Below, piece after piece: positions 122-5,110 of a stretch of 21,068 nt of DNA. The notes below the pieces were generated by a model. The model searched no databases. It was not told where the DNA came from and saw only the letters and a list, made by a program, of their open reading frames with translations. Location: IMG/VR virus record IMGVR_UViG_2778260996_000004. One strand, given 5' to 3'. The translations under genes were made by a program, and so were the position numbers. This stretch comes from a virus (lineage: Duplodnaviria > Heunggongvirae > Uroviricota > Caudoviricetes). The stretch's first letter is position 1; each line of letters begins with the position of its first letter.

Positions 122-739
122 ATGGATAAAAATGTAGAGCATGTATTAGTTGATGCAATTGAAAATAAGCAATCTTTAACAGTCGTTTACTTAGGAGGGA
201 GCCAGCCCGGAACATTAAGGAATATTTCTCCGATTAGTATAAATGGGGATAAGTTGCGGGCAAGATGCCATAGTTCTGGAGCAGTAAAGGTTTTCAATCT
301 TGGGAAAATACAGTTACCCAGTGACTCCTGCGCGGTATCTATGCATTATGGAGATTTAGAAGTTAAAGCTTATGAGACGATGCAGAGCGTAAATGACAAC
401 TTTCATGCCCTTTATCCTGAAGGACGATGGGGTGTTGATTTTAATGAGCATCGCTTTGCTTTATTTGATTTTTTTAAAAACGGGAAACGAAAAAAAACGG
501 CATTTATGGCAATTGAGTTCAGGGAAAGAGATGAAGAGAAAATAATAACAGGTGTAACAATTGATATTGGTATATCTGGAACAGTGATTTCTGAGAAATC
601 CCGAATCCCAAAAAGACGACCATGGGTAGTGGTTGGTCCCGAACACGGAGAATACAGTACTTATTCAACTTTGGACAAGGCTGCTACAGCGTTTTTTGAG
701 AGGCTTTCGTTGATAGCATCCGGCCTGGAAGATAATTGA
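122..739 (+). CDS. hypothetical protein, 205 aa, AT-rich orphan/cargo gene; possible N-terminal SH3-like (WYL-like) beta-barrel; function unknown
   Basis: Intact ORF with GGGAGG (111-116) 5 nt before ATG 122; followed by an intrinsic terminator; composition visibly more AT-rich than the rest of the window (my rough estimate about 40% GC against more than 50% elsewhere). No family recognised. Confidence 0.75.
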   Translation: MDKNVEHVLVDAIENKQSLTVVYLGGSQPGTLRNISPISINGDKLRARCHSSGAVKVFNLGKIQLPSDSCAVSMHYGDLEVKAYETMQSVNDNFHALYPEGRWGVDFNEHRFALFDFFKNGKRKKTAFMAIEFRERDEEKIITGVTIDIGISGTVISEKSRIPKRRPWVVVGPEHGEYSTYSTLDKAATAFFERLSLIASGLEDN

Positions 740-1369: not shown

Positions 1370-2422
1370 ATGAAAAATACTGTAAAAATAAACAGTGTTG
1401 ATTTAATCAACGCTGATTGCCTGCATTTTATTCAGTCCCTGCCTGATGATTCCATTGACCTGATTGTTACCGATCCGCCGTACTTCAAGGTGAAACCCAA
1501 CGGTTGGGACAATCAGTGGAAAGGGGACGAAGATTACCTTAAGTGGCTGGACCACTGTCTGGCCCAGTTCTGGCGGGTGTTAAAACCTGCCGGAAGCCTT
1601 TATCTGTTCTGTGGGCATCGCCTGGCATCTGATATTGAGATCATGATGCGTGAACGTTTCAACGTGCTTAACCATATCATCTGGGCGAAGCCGTCCGGAC
1701 GTTGGAATGGGTGTAATAAAGAAAGTCTGCGCGCATATTTTCCTGCCACAGAGCGCGTTCTGTTTGCTGAACATTACCAGGGGCCATATCGCGGCAAAAG
1801 TGACGGCTATGCAGCAAAAGAAAGGGAACTCAAACAGCACATAATGGCACCGCTGATATCGTATTTCAGGGATGCTCGTGCCGAACTGGGTATAACGGCA
1901 AAACAAATTGCCGAAGCCACAGGTAAGAAAAATATGGTTTCCCACTGGTTTGGTGCCAGTCAGTGGCAGTTGCCGAATGAGGCTGACTATCGGAAGTTAC
2001 AGGCACTGTTTTCCCGTATAGCGGCAGAGAAGTTTCAGGAACAACAACTGGAACAACCACACCACCAGCTGGTGGCATCTTATGATTCACTGAATCGCAA
2101 ATATTCTGAATTGCTGGATGAGTTTAAATCTCTCCGGCGCTATTTCTCCGTATCAGTCTCCGTGCCTTATACCGATGTCTGGACGCATAAACCCGTTCAG
2201 TTCTACCCGGGTAAACATCCGTGCGAGAAACCGGCGGATATGCTCCGGCAAATAATCAATGCCAGTAGTCGCCCTGGTGATCTGGTTGCTGATTTCTTTA
2301 TGGGATCCGGTTCCACAATAAAAGCAGCAATGGCGCTGGGGCGTCGGGCGTTAGGTGTTGAACTTGAGTCAGAGCGGTTTAATCAGACGGTGAAAGAGGT
2401 AAGTGAACTGGTGGGGAAATAA
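1370..2422 (+). CDS. DNA methyltransferase, beta-class amino-MTase (N6-adenine or N4-cytosine), phage orphan type
   Basis: DPPY motif IV near the N-terminus (LIVTDPPYF) and FxGxG motif I near the C-terminus (DFFMGSGST), the beta-class motif order; 350 aa. Confidence 0.9.
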   Translation: MKNTVKINSVDLINADCLHFIQSLPDDSIDLIVTDPPYFKVKPNGWDNQWKGDEDYLKWLDHCLAQFWRVLKPAGSLYLFCGHRLASDIEIMMRERFNVLNHIIWAKPSGRWNGCNKESLRAYFPATERVLFAEHYQGPYRGKSDGYAAKERELKQHIMAPLISYFRDARAELGITAKQIAEATGKKNMVSHWFGASQWQLPNEADYRKLQALFSRIAAEKFQEQQLEQPHHQLVASYDSLNRKYSELLDEFKSLRRYFSVSVSVPYTDVWTHKPVQFYPGKHPCEKPADMLRQIINASSRPGDLVADFFMGSGSTIKAAMALGRRALGVELESERFNQTVKEVSELVGK

Positions 2423-2429
2423 TTCTGGT

Positions 2430-2455
2430 GGCCACGTTGCGTGGCCTTTTTATTT
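2430..2455 (+). terminator. intrinsic terminator-like hairpin after the methyltransferase
   Basis: GGCCACG-ttg-CGTGGCC (7-bp perfect stem) followed by TTTTTATTT, 8 nt after the MTase stop. Confidence 0.5.
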
Positions 2456-2498
2456 CCAACACAGCACCCGCAAATATCGCGAGGTGAGAGATGACGAA

Positions 2499-2834
2499 AT
2501 GCCTCATAACCCAAATACCTGGCCGGACTGGCTGGAGTTGTTTCAGAGCTGGTGGCGTGGAGACACGCCGCTGGGTGCAGTGATTATGTCGATCGTTATG
2601 GCTGGTTTGCGCATCGCCTATTTTGGCGGTGGTGGTGGCTGGAAGCGAAAAACGCTCGAGATTTTGCTCTGTGGCGCTCTGACGCTGACCTTTGCATCCG
2701 CTCTTGAGTATGTCGGATGGCCTAAATCACTTTCTGTTGCCATTGGTGGCGGTGTGGGGCTGATCGGTGTCGATGCTATTCGTGGGGCTGCAATGCGAGT
2801 AATCGGTAACAAGTTTGGTGGCTCTAAGGAGTAA
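2499..2834 (+). CDS. putative holin, class I topology (three hydrophobic segments), 111 aa
   Basis: Sits directly upstream of the endolysin gene; three hydrophobic/Gly-rich segments and a charged C-terminal tail; GAGGTG upstream of ATG 2499. The ORF track extends it to GTG 2403, but that extension contains the terminator hairpin. Not lambda-S-like in sequence. Confidence 0.6.
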   Translation: MPHNPNTWPDWLELFQSWWRGDTPLGAVIMSIVMAGLRIAYFGGGGGWKRKTLEILLCGALTLTFASALEYVGWPKSLSVAIGGGVGLIGVDAIRGAAMRVIGNKFGGSKE

Positions 2835-2837
2835 TTT

Positions 2838-3314
2838 ATGCAGGTACTAAATTCCCAGCGTAAAGCTTTCCTCGATATGTTGGCGTGGTCAGAAGGAACG
2901 GATAACGGGCGACAGCCAACCCGCAATCACGGCTACGACGTTATTGTAGGTGGTGAGTTATTCACGGATTACTCCGATCATCCTCGCAAACTTGTCACGC
3001 TAAACCCCAAACTCAAATCAACAGCCGCCGGACGTTACCAGCTTCTTTCACGCTGGTGGGATGCTTACCGTAAACAGCTTGGCCTGAAAGATTTTTCTCC
3101 AGAAAGCCAGGACGCTGTAGCTCTGCAGCAGATTAAAGAGCGTGGCGCTTTACCGATGATTGATCGCGGTGATATTCGTCAGGCTATCGACCGTTGCAGC
3201 AATATCTGGGCTTCACTACCGGGCGCTGGTTATGGTCAGTTCGAGCATAAAGTTGACAGCCTGATTGCAAAATTCAAAGAAGCAGGCGGAACGGTCAGAG
3301 AGATTGAGGTATGA
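2838..3314 (+). CDS. R: endolysin, lambda R-type lytic transglycosylase
   Basis: 158 aa, near-identical to lambda R as I recall it ([22 protein letters not shown]...GTVREI.V); AAGGAG RBS at 2826-2831. Confidence 0.95.
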
Positions 3315-3778
3315 GCAGAGTAACCGCGATTATCTCCGCTCTGGTTATTTGTATCATCGCCTGCCTGTCATGGGCTGTTAATCATTACCGTGATAACGCC
3401 ATCGCCTACAAAGAACAGCGTGATAAAAAAGTCAGTGAGCTGAAGCAGGCGACCGCCACCATCGCTGACATGCAGCAGCGTCAGCGTGATGTTGCTGCGA
3501 TCGATGCAAAATACACGAAGGAGTTAGCCGATGCGAAAACTGAAAATGAAACTCTGCGCGCTGATGTTGCCGCTGGTCGTAAGCGCCTGCGGGTCAATGC
3601 CAGTTGCTCCGCAGCCGTGCGTGAAGCCACCGGACCCACCAGCATGGATAATGCAACCAGCCCCCGACTGGCAGACACCGCTGAACGGGATTATTTCACC
3701 CTCAGAGAACGGTTGATGACGATGCAGAAGCAACTGGAAGGGGCGCAGGAATATATCCGCACCCAGCGCATTAAGTAG
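3311..3778 (+). CDS. Rz: i-spanin Rz
   Basis: 155 aa, strongly lambda-Rz-like ([16 protein letters not shown]...); start overlaps the R stop (GTATGA). Confidence 0.9.
3531..3716 (+). CDS. Rz1: o-spanin Rz1 (lipoprotein), embedded in Rz in the +1 frame
   Basis: 61 aa; signal peptide with lipobox-like LVVSAC, proline-rich mature part ([30 protein letters not shown]) matching lambda Rz1; AAGGAG RBS at 3517-3522. Confidence 0.85.
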
Positions 3779-4162
3779 ATGGAGAAAAAACACGAATCTG
3801 TGGTTTTTACTGAGCGCGGTGTACACGGTGGAACATATGGCGGGAAGTTTGTTGCTTATGATTATGCAGCATGGCTAAACCCCGGATTTAAATATGCAGC
3901 CTATAAAGTCCTGGATGACTACTTCACCGGAGAACTTCAGCATCGCAACAGCTTAAGTGCGCAGCTCAATATGAAGTGTCATGAGTTTGATCAGAAAAAA
4001 GATATGGCGAGCTTCTGTGGACAAGGGCTGGCGGCATGGCGCTATACGAAGCCAGTGTTGGTCGCTGAGATTAACTCCCTGGCTAACCAGCTGCAGATAA
4101 CGATCCCCGGGCTGTCCGGTATTTGCCGGTATGAAATTACCGGAAGGCGCGGTCGTTACTGA
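3779..4162 (+). CDS. hypothetical protein, 127 aa, possible KilA-N/APSES-type DNA-binding domain
   Basis: ATG 3779 immediately follows the Rz stop (TAGATG). Motif GTYGGKFVAYDYAAWLNPGFKYAAYKVL resembles the KilA-N pattern from memory; no SD evident. Confidence 0.45.
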   Translation: MEKKHESVVFTERGVHGGTYGGKFVAYDYAAWLNPGFKYAAYKVLDDYFTGELQHRNSLSAQLNMKCHEFDQKKDMASFCGQGLAAWRYTKPVLVAEINSLANQLQITIPGLSGICRYEITGRRGRY

Positions 4163-4419
4163 GTAACAGCAGGCATTACAGCAGCCCTTCACTGAGGGGC
4201 TGCGATAATGTGAGGAATAAAAAACCGGCAGGGGAAATCCATTGAAGATTTGCCGGTGGCAAAAGATGGCCATGCTTTTAACCTTAGTAGCAGAGTTACG
4301 GAGTTCAACAACGACCGTCGCCGTTATCTTGCTGAAAGGCGTTTCAATGATTTTCATCAATTTATTCATCAGCAATGGTGATAATCACTCTCATTTTGGC
4401 GGGTCCTTCCGGTGGGGTG

Positions 4420-4450
4420 GCCTGCCACGGGGCGGGAGCGGCGCGGAAAA
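4420..4450. other. candidate cohesive-end site (cosN-like), with the AT-rich region 4450-4615 as candidate cosB/IHF region
   Basis: ACGGGGCGGGAGCGGCGCGG (4427-4446) shares the ACGGGGCGG core with lambda cosN as I recall it; lies about 170 bp upstream of the terminase small-subunit start and is followed by a strongly AT-rich stretch. Confidence 0.35.
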
Positions 4451-4615
4451 AGGCTAGTTTTTGAAATTTCATTCGTCATCACCACTACTGTAATGCATTG
4501 ATATTGCATTAGTTTTATTTTTATGGTGTCGATTTTGATTGTTTTTTGTTCATCACTAACACCGTTTGCCTAAAGTTGTTCGCAAGATGCATGTTTAAAA
4601 CATTCTGGAGCGGGT

Positions 4616-5110
4616 ATGGATCAAGAGTTAAAAAATCTGACGCTGAATATCAGTCAACTGGCGGCACTGTCAGGTGTACATCGCCAGACTGCTGCGGCAA
4701 GGCTGCAAAATCTACCCGTTGCAGGGGGGCATGAAAGCAACCTCAAGCTTTATCGGGTGGTTGATATTGTGTCGGCATTTCTGGCATTACCACCGCCGGT
4801 TGCAGAAGGCGAAATGGACGCGCATGAGCGCAAAGCCTGGTATCAGTCTGAACGTGAGCGTCTTAAGTTCGAACAGGAAACGGCACAACTCATTCCGGCC
4901 AGTGATGTCAGACGGGAGTTTGCCATCTGGGCAAAAGCGGTCGTGCAGGTACTGGAGACATTACCGGATATTCTGGAACGTGACTGCGGTCTGCAGCCTG
5001 CCGCTGTGAGCCGTGTTCAGTCCATTATTGATGATCTGCGCGATCAGATAGCCCTGCGGGTGACCGAAGCAGGTGCGGATGATGAGGAGGAATTACAGCA
5101 GGAGGAGTAA
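4616..5110 (+). CDS. terminase small subunit
   Basis: 164 aa; position immediately upstream of and overlapping the large terminase (TAATG); N-terminal HTH-like segment (LTLNISQLAALSGVHRQTAAARL); acidic C-terminus. Confidence 0.7.
   Translation: MDQELKNLTLNISQLAALSGVHRQTAAARLQNLPVAGGHESNLKLYRVVDIVSAFLALPPPVAEGEMDAHERKAWYQSERERLKFEQETAQLIPASDVRREFAIWAKAVVQVLETLPDILERDCGLQPAAVSRVQSIIDDLRDQIALRVTEAGADDEEELQQEE

What the first reader, a model, noticed from the sequence alone, without database searches (positions are those of the whole stretch)
3779..4420. Moron slot between the spanin gene and cos holds a KilA-N-like ORF
The 127-aa ORF starts on the nucleotide after the Rz stop without an SD, suggesting translational coupling to the lysis genes. 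It is followed by about 260 bp of apparently non-coding DNA containing hairpins (for example GCAGCCC-ttcactga-GGGCTGC at 4178-4200). Lambda carries different, opposite-strand cargo in the equivalent position, so this is a second accessory locus in the window. KilA-N-type proteins are DNA-binding and sometimes toxic to the host.
Basis: partly seen in the sequence, partly recalled or inferred. Interest (0 to 1): 0.5.

Follow-up and report, generated by a model that had tools for sequence, protein, structure and literature searches.

The report
Truncated KilA-N gene remnant beside cos
The 127-codon reading frame after the phage spanin gene is a leftover fragment of a known KilA-N/ORF11CD3 gene (HK620 hkbK) spliced to the tail of a second dead gene, so it is most likely an ordinary recombination scar rather than a working accessory gene.

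Summary
ORF 3779-4162 starts on the base after the Rz stop and has no Shine-Dalgarno. About 267 bp without a credible gene follow, up to cosN, and they contain a strong hairpin.

The ORF is codons 52-163 of the 165-codon hkbK gene of phage HK620. It has lost the first half of the KilA-N fold and keeps only the last third of that domain plus an intact ORF11CD3 helical hairpin. Its last 13 codons come from the final 19 codons of a phiP27 L33-type gene, read out of frame. The hairpin is that gene's conserved 3' hairpin.

The ATG is a lineage-specific C-to-A change. The ancestral codon is CTG (Leu). It is present in 38 of 44 related viral loci, and about 97 of 100 complete E. coli genomes with this junction differ from the window by one base there.

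Full-length hkbK is under strong purifying selection (dN/dS 0.01-0.07). The truncated copies show 2 synonymous against 9 non-synonymous polymorphisms. Neighbouring genes in the same loci show 70 against 22 (p = 0.0003).

Best reading: a decaying remnant of two morons, transcribed passively with the late operon. The only clearly functional DNA here is cosQ/cosN. Interest is low.

The parts
3311..3778 (+). Rz (i-spanin), intact. Its TAG stop at 3776-3778 forms the 5' junction of the remnant.
   Evidence: Pfam Phage_lysis 7.4e-50 and PHROG 13 Rz-like spanin.
3531..3716 (+). Rz1 (o-spanin lipoprotein) embedded in Rz in another frame. Listed for context.
   Evidence: 61-aa [25 protein letters not shown].... 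Same arrangement as lambda Rz/Rz1.
3779..4162 (+). The 127-aa chimeric ORF: 5'-truncated hkbK plus an out-of-frame tail. The ATG at 3779 is a derived C-to-A change.
Evidence: Annotated as hypothetical protein WP_000412156.1 in E. coli JE86-ST05.
3779..4113 (+). Segment derived from hkbK, codons 52-163 of the 165-codon gene. It keeps the last two strands and last helix of the KilA-N fold plus the complete ORF11CD3 helical hairpin.
   Evidence: DNA alignment with HK620, protein alignment, Pfam, and secondary structure of the full-length model.
4107..4113 (+). CCGGGCT, the heptamer shared by both parent genes, within which the 3' crossover lies.
   Evidence: Comparison of window, HK620, STEC719 and phiP27 sequences.
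4107..4166 (+). Fossil of the last 19 codons plus stop of a phiP27 L33-type gene (PHROG 1935). The 127-aa ORF reads this DNA in a different frame.
   Evidence: Translation gives PGCPVFAGMKLPEGAVVTE*, matching the end of phiP27 L33. Two relatives with a 1-nt deletion read it in the L33 frame.
4174..4210 (+). Strong conserved hairpin that follows the L33-type gene stop in other phages. No U-run follows it on either strand.
   Evidence: dG -25.1 kcal/mol, z -4.7. Inverted repeat I1. 92.7-97.6% identical over about 41 nt in phiP27, Fels-1 and an Actinobacillus phage. Alignment.
4218..4257 (-). Second hairpin followed by U6 on the minus strand. It looks like a terminator, but no function is shown.
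   Evidence: dG -13.5 kcal/mol, z -3.5. Not picked up by the simple terminator scan. It lies in an approximately 85-nt block that is nearly invariant in four diverged prophages.
4401..4407 (+). GGGTCCT, which aligns with the lambda sequence 30 nt upstream of cosN. From my own knowledge this is cosQ.
   Evidence: Local alignment of window 4378-4470 with the joined lambda ends.
4430..4441 (+). Predicted cosN cohesive-end sequence GGGCGGGAGCGG (lambda has GGGCGGCGACCT).
   Evidence: The phage cdtI record ends at the base equivalent to 4429. Alignment to the lambda ends.
4616..5110 (+). Terminase small subunit (DUF1441 type). It marks the downstream limit of the slot.
   Evidence: Pfam DUF1441 2.7e-41 and PHROG 141.

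Best explanation
The interval is a recombination scar built from two former accessory genes. It is not a working moron.

Ancestral state (shown): in HK620, ECP1, Stx phage 2851 and Salmonella phages S107 and FSL SP-016, Rz is followed by a 200-340 bp spacer. After the spacer comes a 165-codon KilA-N + ORF11CD3 gene (hkbK), and an 85-codon gene (hkbL) overlaps its end.

Step 1 (shown by alignment): a deletion of 495 bp relative to HK620 removed the spacer and the first 51 codons of hkbK. Codon 52 (CTG) was joined directly to the Rz stop codon. One viral contig still has this 5' junction together with the native hkbK stop and an intact hkbL.

Step 2 (shown): a crossover inside a shared CCGGGCT heptamer joined codon 163 of hkbK to the last 19 codons of a phiP27 L33-type gene, one base out of frame. 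This gave the unrelated 13-residue tail. It also brought in that gene's 3' hairpin and the DNA next to cos.

Step 3 (shown): in a minority lineage that includes this window, CTG became ATG.

Consequences (inferred): the DNA is transcribed passively, because the late transcript must cross it to reach the terminase genes. In the ATG lineage, ribosomes finishing Rz may restart at UAG-AUG and make a little of the 127-aa product. That product lacks two of the four strands and three helices of the KilA-N/APSES fold, so KilA-type DNA binding or toxicity is not expected. Only the ORF11CD3 helical hairpin is whole. The fragment appears to be drifting. The functional elements in the interval are cosQ and cosN.
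For: - Origin: residues 1-114 are 97% identical to HK620 HkbK residues 52-165. Relative to HK620, 495 bp are missing at the Rz junction.
- Gene order: the Rz-spacer-hkbK-hkbL order is the same in five phages.
- Domain content: full-length HkbK scores KilA-N 58.5 bits over profile positions 6-106, plus ORF11CD3. The window ORF scores KilA-N 15.9 bits, below the cut-off, over positions 71-106 only, plus ORF11CD3 at 51 bits.
- Start codon in viral and phage loci: 38 of 44 loci with the same junction have CTG and 6 have ATG. All ATG loci long enough to compare have an Rz identical to the window's, which fits a single origin.
- Start codon in complete genomes: of 5,426 complete E. coli genomes, 100 carry the junction. 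Only 3 match the window exactly; the rest differ by one base.
- Start codon in the phage record: the cdtI record notes 'Start codon is not identified'.
- Selection on full-length hkbK: pairwise dN/dS is 0.007-0.074.
- Selection on truncated copies: they show 2 synonymous and 9 non-synonymous polymorphic sites, with 85 synonymous and 296 non-synonymous sites available.
- Selection control: Rz, terS and terL in the same loci show 70 synonymous and 22 non-synonymous. Fisher p = 2.7e-4.
- Tail: two loci carry a 1-nt deletion at codon 113 that changes the whole tail.
- Tail origin: window 4107-4166 translates to the exact C-terminus of phiP27 L33 in another frame.
- Intermediate state: the contig with intact hkbL is L024.
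- Promoter: no promoter-like site lies upstream of the ORF.
Against: - The hkbK-derived reading frame is unbroken in every locus that reaches that far. At below 1% divergence this is also expected by chance.
- The polymorphism sample is small (11 sites). Very recent polymorphism inflates dN/dS in general. The flanking-gene control answers this only in part, and Rz carries an overlapping Rz1 frame.
- Small stand-alone ORF11CD3 proteins exist in PHROGs 23489, 16011 and 20738. A truncated product could therefore in principle keep some activity.
- CTG-type copies have an in-frame GTG at codon 8 that annotation pipelines use as a start (120-aa cluster P0001).
- No expression data were available.
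Confidence: 0.8

Rival explanations
1. The fragment has become a small functional gene. The new ATG abutting the Rz stop lets ribosomes restart, and a stand-alone ORF11CD3 helical-hairpin protein is made late in infection. It might bind partners of full-length KilA-N/ORF11CD3 proteins, for example as a dominant-negative against related phages.
For: - Stop and start are adjacent (TAG ATG) and lie inside the late operon.
- The ORF11CD3 domain is complete at 51 bits.
- Short ORF11CD3-only families exist in PHROGs.
- The frame is open in all copies.
Against: - The ATG occurs in only 3 of 100 complete genomes with the junction and 6 of 44 viral and phage loci, apparently from a single origin.
- Polymorphism is 2 synonymous to 9 non-synonymous.
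- The tail is frameshifted in some copies.
- There is no Shine-Dalgarno sequence.
Confidence: 0.1
2. The DNA is kept for a role in cis rather than for its protein. It could act as spacer or structured RNA/DNA between the lysis genes and cos, with the conserved hairpin (4174-4210) and the adjacent invariant block (4219 to about 4300) serving as RNA-processing, RNA-stability or packaging-related signals.
For: - The hairpin is 92.7-97.6% identical across phiP27, Fels-1 and an Actinobacillus phage, in otherwise different surroundings.
- It is thermodynamically exceptional.
- The block from 4219 to about 4300 is nearly invariant in four diverged prophages, while the next 85 nt differ at about 30 positions.
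- Few sites segregate in 4163-4429.
Against: - This reading concerns 4166-4429, not the ORF itself.
- The hairpin has no U-run.
- Nothing in Rfam matches.
- In phiP27 an HNH gene separates the hairpin from cos, so a fixed distance to cos is not required.
- High identity may simply reflect recent exchange.
Confidence: 0.25
3. The ORF is expressed as a C-terminal extension of Rz by read-through of the UAG stop, since the two frames are the same. This would give an Rz-HkbK' fusion.
For: The ORF is in frame with Rz by construction: 3779 - 3311 = 468, which is 156 codons.
Against: - No read-through signal is known or visible here.
- The arrangement is an accident of a deletion junction.
- Such a fusion would probably harm spanin function.
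Confidence: 0.02

Closest known systems
HkbK of coliphage HK620 (NP_112071, 165 aa; KilA-N + ORF11CD3) and its orthologues in ECP1, Stx phages 2851/1717 and Salmonella phages S107 and FSL SP-016
   Same: The same gene by descent: 93-97% amino-acid identity over residues 52-165. It sits in the same position, downstream of Rz in the late operon.
   Different: The window copy lacks the upstream spacer and codons 1-51, and so half of the KilA-N fold. It also lacks the native stop and the partner gene hkbL. It carries a foreign 13-residue tail and a start codon created by mutation.
orf60 of phage cdtI (YP_001272573), Orf23 of phage phi458, and WP_000412156.1 of E. coli JE86-ST05
   Same: The same truncated ORF at 98-100% identity in the same context. 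PHROG 10441 matches end to end.
   Different: cdtI and phi458 have CTG at the junction, and their annotators started the ORF at a GTG 21 nt downstream. The window and JE86-ST05 have ATG.
phiP27 L33 (NP_543085; PHROG 1935, function unknown) with its 3' hairpin
   Same: Window 4107-4166 encodes its last 19 residues exactly. The hairpin that follows is 97.6% identical.
   Different: Only the 3' end of the gene survives in the window, and the 127-aa ORF reads it in the wrong frame.
Phage lambda Rz-cos interval (bor, lambdap78, lambdap79) and lambda cosQ/cosN
   Same: The same variable slot between the spanin gene and cos. The window sequence at 4378-4470 aligns with lambda cosQ-cosN.
   Different: Lambda carries about 2 kb with intact genes on the opposite strand. 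Here there are 651 bp of co-oriented gene debris. The small terminase is a DUF1441 type, not Nu1.
KilA-N/APSES DNA-binding proteins (P1 KilA, BstA N-terminal domain, yeast Mbp1)
   Different: The window product keeps only the last third of the domain, so these activities cannot be carried over to it.

Membership tests
KilA-N domain proteins (Pfam PF04383) | Match to the domain model above the curated cut-off, covering the domain | tested here: not met
   15.9 bits against a cut-off of 23.8, covering profile positions 71-106 of 107 only. Full-length HkbK gives 58.5 bits over positions 6-106.
KilA-N domain proteins (Pfam PF04383) | Complete APSES-like fold (four-stranded sheet plus helices) | tested here: not met
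   In the model of the 165-aa homologue, E2-6, E9-13, H21-28, H36-41 and most of H43-54 precede residue 52, where the window ORF begins. The fold was confirmed against Mbp1.
KilA-N domain proteins (Pfam PF04383) | Descent from a KilA-N gene | tested here: met
   97% identity to HkbK residues 52-165, with a DNA alignment that shows the deletion.
ORF11CD3 domain (Pfam PF10549; part of the Bro/KilA domain-shuffling network, PMC10111431) | Full-length match above the curated cut-off | tested here: met
   51 bits against a cut-off of 25; residues 58-110 match profile positions 1-54 of 54.
Moron (autonomous accessory gene in a phage late region) | Own promoter, so that it can be expressed from the prophage | tested here: not met
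   No promoter-like site lies upstream of 3779, and the ORF abuts Rz. The ancestral 200-340 bp spacer is deleted.
Moron (autonomous accessory gene in a phage late region) | Own intrinsic terminator | tested here: inconclusive
   A strong hairpin at 4174-4210 follows the ORF, but no U-run follows it and the scan found no terminator.
Moron (autonomous accessory gene in a phage late region) | Intact gene conserved under purifying selection | tested here: not met
   2 synonymous against 9 non-synonymous polymorphisms, compared with 70 against 22 in flanking genes. A frameshifted tail occurs in two loci.
Translationally coupled gene pair | Start codon adjacent to or overlapping the upstream stop, conserved among relatives | tested here: not met
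   TAG-ATG is present in the window. However, 38 of 44 viral and phage loci have TAG-CTG, and about 97 of 100 complete E. coli genomes with the junction differ from the window by one base.
Lambda-type cos site | cosN with a 12-nt G+C-rich end, and the cosQ heptamer about 30 nt upstream | tested here: met
   Alignment to the lambda ends, with GGGTCCT at 4401-4407. The cdtI genome record ends at the base equivalent to 4429. Cleavage itself cannot be tested here.

The most novel reading that the evidence does not exclude
A single C-to-A change has turned a dead gene fragment into a translatable ORF by placing an AUG directly against the Rz stop codon. If so, this is a phage proto-gene caught at birth. 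Its product, half a KilA-N domain plus a whole ORF11CD3 hairpin, might interfere with full-length KilA-N/ORF11CD3 proteins of co-resident or invading phages.
Probability: 0.07. Interest if true: 0.4.

Novelty: already known. Interest (0 to 1): 0.12.

Why it matters
It matters mainly for annotation. Pipelines label this ORF 'hypothetical protein', 'DNA-binding protein' or 'protein KilA'. Reading it as a KilA-N toxin or regulator would be wrong.

It is also a clean, datable example of how the slot between the lysis genes and cos in lambdoid phages changes over time. A deletion, a short-homology crossover and a point mutation can each be seen, and an intermediate state is still present in the databases.

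The conserved 41-nt hairpin shared with phiP27 and Fels-1 is the only element here that might repay experimental work.

Tried and rejected
- Rfam at a permissive threshold over 3600-4700 gave only chance-level snoRNA and CrcZ matches.
- A minus-strand protein gene in 4222-4375 is annotated in one E. coli genome (98 aa). I rejected it. Its length and C-terminus differ in every relative (67, 98 and 140 aa). It has no family match. Substitutions show no codon periodicity.
- The plus-strand small ORFs, phi458 Orf24 at 4256-4381 and a 71-aa ORF crossing cosN, were rejected for the same lack of periodicity.
- Prophage anti-sRNAs (AgvB/AsxR) were considered for the hairpins. They map to the moron site just downstream of pR', not to this slot (PMC4104026).
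- The helper-embedded satellite paper that mentions ORF11CD3 only lists the domain as part of the Bro network. It gives no link to this junction.
- PADLOC gave only a weak match to candidate PDC-S22 over the KilA-N remnant. NCBIfam gave nothing.
- I looked for microhomology at the 5' deletion junction and found only the dinucleotide AG.
- I did not predict the structure of the truncated product. An alignment-driven model would not reveal whether a half domain is stable.

Full report
**What is in the sequence**

The window is a lambdoid prophage late region. In order it contains:
- a DNA methyltransferase;
- a holin, an endolysin, and Rz with embedded Rz1;
- the ORF in question;
- cos;
- a DUF1441-type small terminase and a lambda-A-like large terminase, followed by head genes.

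The ORF runs from 3779 to 4162 (127 aa). Rz stops with TAG at 3776-3778 and the ATG follows immediately, so the two are also in the same frame. No Shine-Dalgarno-like sequence precedes the ATG. The 267 bp from the ORF stop to 4429 hold no credible gene.

Its core is at 4181-4203 rather than 4178-4200. It belongs to a longer structure with arms at 4174-4191 and 4193-4210 (dG -25.1 kcal/mol, z = -4.7). Lambda does carry opposite-strand genes (bor, lambdap78) in the equivalent interval.

**What the ORF is**

Pfam finds a complete ORF11CD3 domain (residues 58-110, 51 bits). It finds only the last third of KilA-N (profile 71-106 of 107), at 15.9 bits and below the cut-off. PHROG 129 matches through positions 64-175 of 273, which points to an internal fragment.

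tblastn and DNA alignment show that residues 1-114 are 97% identical to residues 52-165 of HkbK of phage HK620. HkbK is a 165-aa protein with a full KilA-N domain (58.5 bits) followed by ORF11CD3.

In HK620, ECP1, Stx phage 2851 and Salmonella phages S107 and FSL SP-016 the order is the same. Rz comes first, then a 200-340 bp spacer, then hkbK (498 bp), then hkbL (258 bp) overlapping the hkbK stop. Relative to HK620 the window lacks 495 bp: the spacer and the first 51 codons of hkbK.

**The start codon**

In HK620 the codon at the junction is CTG (Leu52). Phages phi458 and cdtI share the window's junction and also have TAG-CTG. The cdtI record says 'Start codon is not identified'.

A scan of viral contigs for the junction, with the first base left free, returned 42 loci. 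Adding phi458 and cdtI gives 44, of which 38 have C and 6 have A. The A-type loci long enough to compare have an Rz identical to the window's, so one mutation in one lineage is enough to explain them.

Among 5,426 complete E. coli genomes, 100 carry the junction. Only 3 match the window exactly, and the rest differ at one base. The abutting stop and start that suggested translational coupling is therefore an accident: a deletion end-point plus a later point mutation. It is not a conserved design.

**The 3' end**

Homology to hkbK stops at 4113, two codons before the native stop. From 4107 onward the sequence is the 3' end of a different phage gene. Window 4107-4166 translates to PGCPVFAGMKLPEGAVVTE*. 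This is the exact C-terminus of phiP27 L33, a PHROG 1935 protein of unknown function with a longer allele in E. coli strain 204446.

The two parents share the heptamer CCGGGCT (4107-4113), where the crossover must lie. The join is one base out of frame, which creates the unrelated tail SGICRYEITGRRGRY. Two related loci have lost one T at codon 113 and read the L33 frame instead.

One viral contig (L024) has the 5' junction together with the native hkbK stop and an intact hkbL. The 5' deletion therefore came first.

**Selection**

Full-length hkbK genes differ mostly at synonymous sites, with dN/dS of 0.007-0.074 over the retained part.

Among 38 truncated copies without indels there are 2 synonymous and 9 non-synonymous segregating sites. 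With 85 synonymous and 296 non-synonymous sites available, this is what neutrality predicts.

In the same loci and at similar divergence, Rz, terS and terL together show 70 synonymous and 22 non-synonymous. Fisher p = 2.7e-4.

The sample is small, and young polymorphism inflates dN/dS. Even so, the contrast with neighbouring genes points to relaxed constraint.

**The non-coding stretch**

- **Hairpin at 4174-4210.** It follows the L33 stop directly in phiP27. It recurs at 92.7-97.6% identity over about 41 nt in Fels-1 and an Actinobacillus phage, and in a variant with a more perfect stem in E. coli 204446 and an Stx2k phage. No U-run follows it on either strand. Its role is unknown.
- **Second hairpin at 4224-4257.** It is followed by U6 on the minus strand and looks like a terminator. 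No minus-strand gene can be supported.
- **Open frames in 4219-4400.** Three frames stay open here in four diverged homologues, but substitutions are spread evenly over the three codon positions.
- **cos.** From 4378 the sequence aligns with lambda cosQ-cosN. GGGTCCT lies at 4401-4407. The predicted cohesive end GGGCGGGAGCGG lies at 4430-4441. The cdtI genome record ends at the base equivalent to 4429.

**Mechanism and verdict**

The best-supported account is that this interval is debris from two accessory genes, produced by a deletion and a short-homology crossover. It is transcribed only because the late transcript has to cross it.

In the ATG lineage some restart of translation after Rz is plausible. 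Even so, the product cannot have an intact KilA-N fold, and nothing indicates selection for it. I put this reading at about 0.8.

The rivals are a newly functional ORF11CD3 mini-protein (about 0.1) and a cis-acting role for the hairpin region. The second is compatible with the main reading and concerns 4166-4300 only.

The ORF is already in the databases: cdtI orf60, phi458 Orf23, WP_000412156.1 and PHROG 10441. Variable content in the Rz-cos slot is well known. Novelty is nil and interest is low. The practical value is in warning against annotating this ORF as a KilA-N protein.

Noticed in passing
window 4174-4210; L056 (phiP27) 2001-2041; L057 (Fels-1) 2001-2040: A hairpin of about 41 nt is 92.7-97.6% identical in phages whose flanking sequences otherwise differ (phiP27, Fels-1, an Actinobacillus phage, cdtI type). 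A second variant with a more perfect stem occurs in E. coli 204446 and an Stx2k phage. No U-run follows it. It could be an RNA-processing or stability signal, or a recombination hotspot at a module boundary.
   Followed up: partly
L046 2700-2840, L048 2400-2500, L058 about 2050-2180 (absent from the window between 4215 and 4222): Related prophages carry an extra segment of about 130 bp flanked by direct repeats of AATAAAAAACCGG. Its minus strand encodes a short, very hydrophobic peptide (...LVCCINAWVVLAVFAG...). This resembles a small membrane toxin or an insertion footprint.
   Followed up: no
window 4219-4400: Two plus frames and one minus frame all stay open over about 180 nt in four homologues that differ at 33-35 positions. 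One plus frame runs across cosN. Substitutions show no codon periodicity, so this looks like chance, but it is unusual.
   Followed up: yes
window 4219 to about 4300: A block of about 85 nt next to the hairpins is almost invariant in prophages whose next 85 nt, and whose small terminase genes, have diverged. It contains a terminator-like hairpin for the minus strand (4218-4257).
   Followed up: partly
window 2403-2834 and 2430-2456: The mechanical holin ORF (143 aa, GTG start) begins upstream of a good intrinsic terminator that follows the methyltransferase gene (GGCCACG-ttg-CGTGGCC plus a T-run). The holin domain starts at residue 35. The real start is probably the ATG near 2499.
   Followed up: partly
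window 122-739, 992-1219, 1370-2422: Upstream of the lysis genes lie three ORFs: a 205-aa ORF with a weak WYL-like match, a 75-aa ORF with faint winged-helix hits, and an N6/N4 DNA methyltransferase. The 75-aa ORF and the methyltransferase have counterparts in phage cdtI (orf55, orf56).
   Followed up: no
L054 (E. coli JE86-ST05) 3196-4278: The prophage that shares the ATG allele carries an ompC-like porin gene on the opposite strand between Q and the lysis genes. Its lysis cassette (essD/rrrD type) also differs from the window's. The mosaic boundary must therefore lie inside or just upstream of Rz.
   Followed up: no
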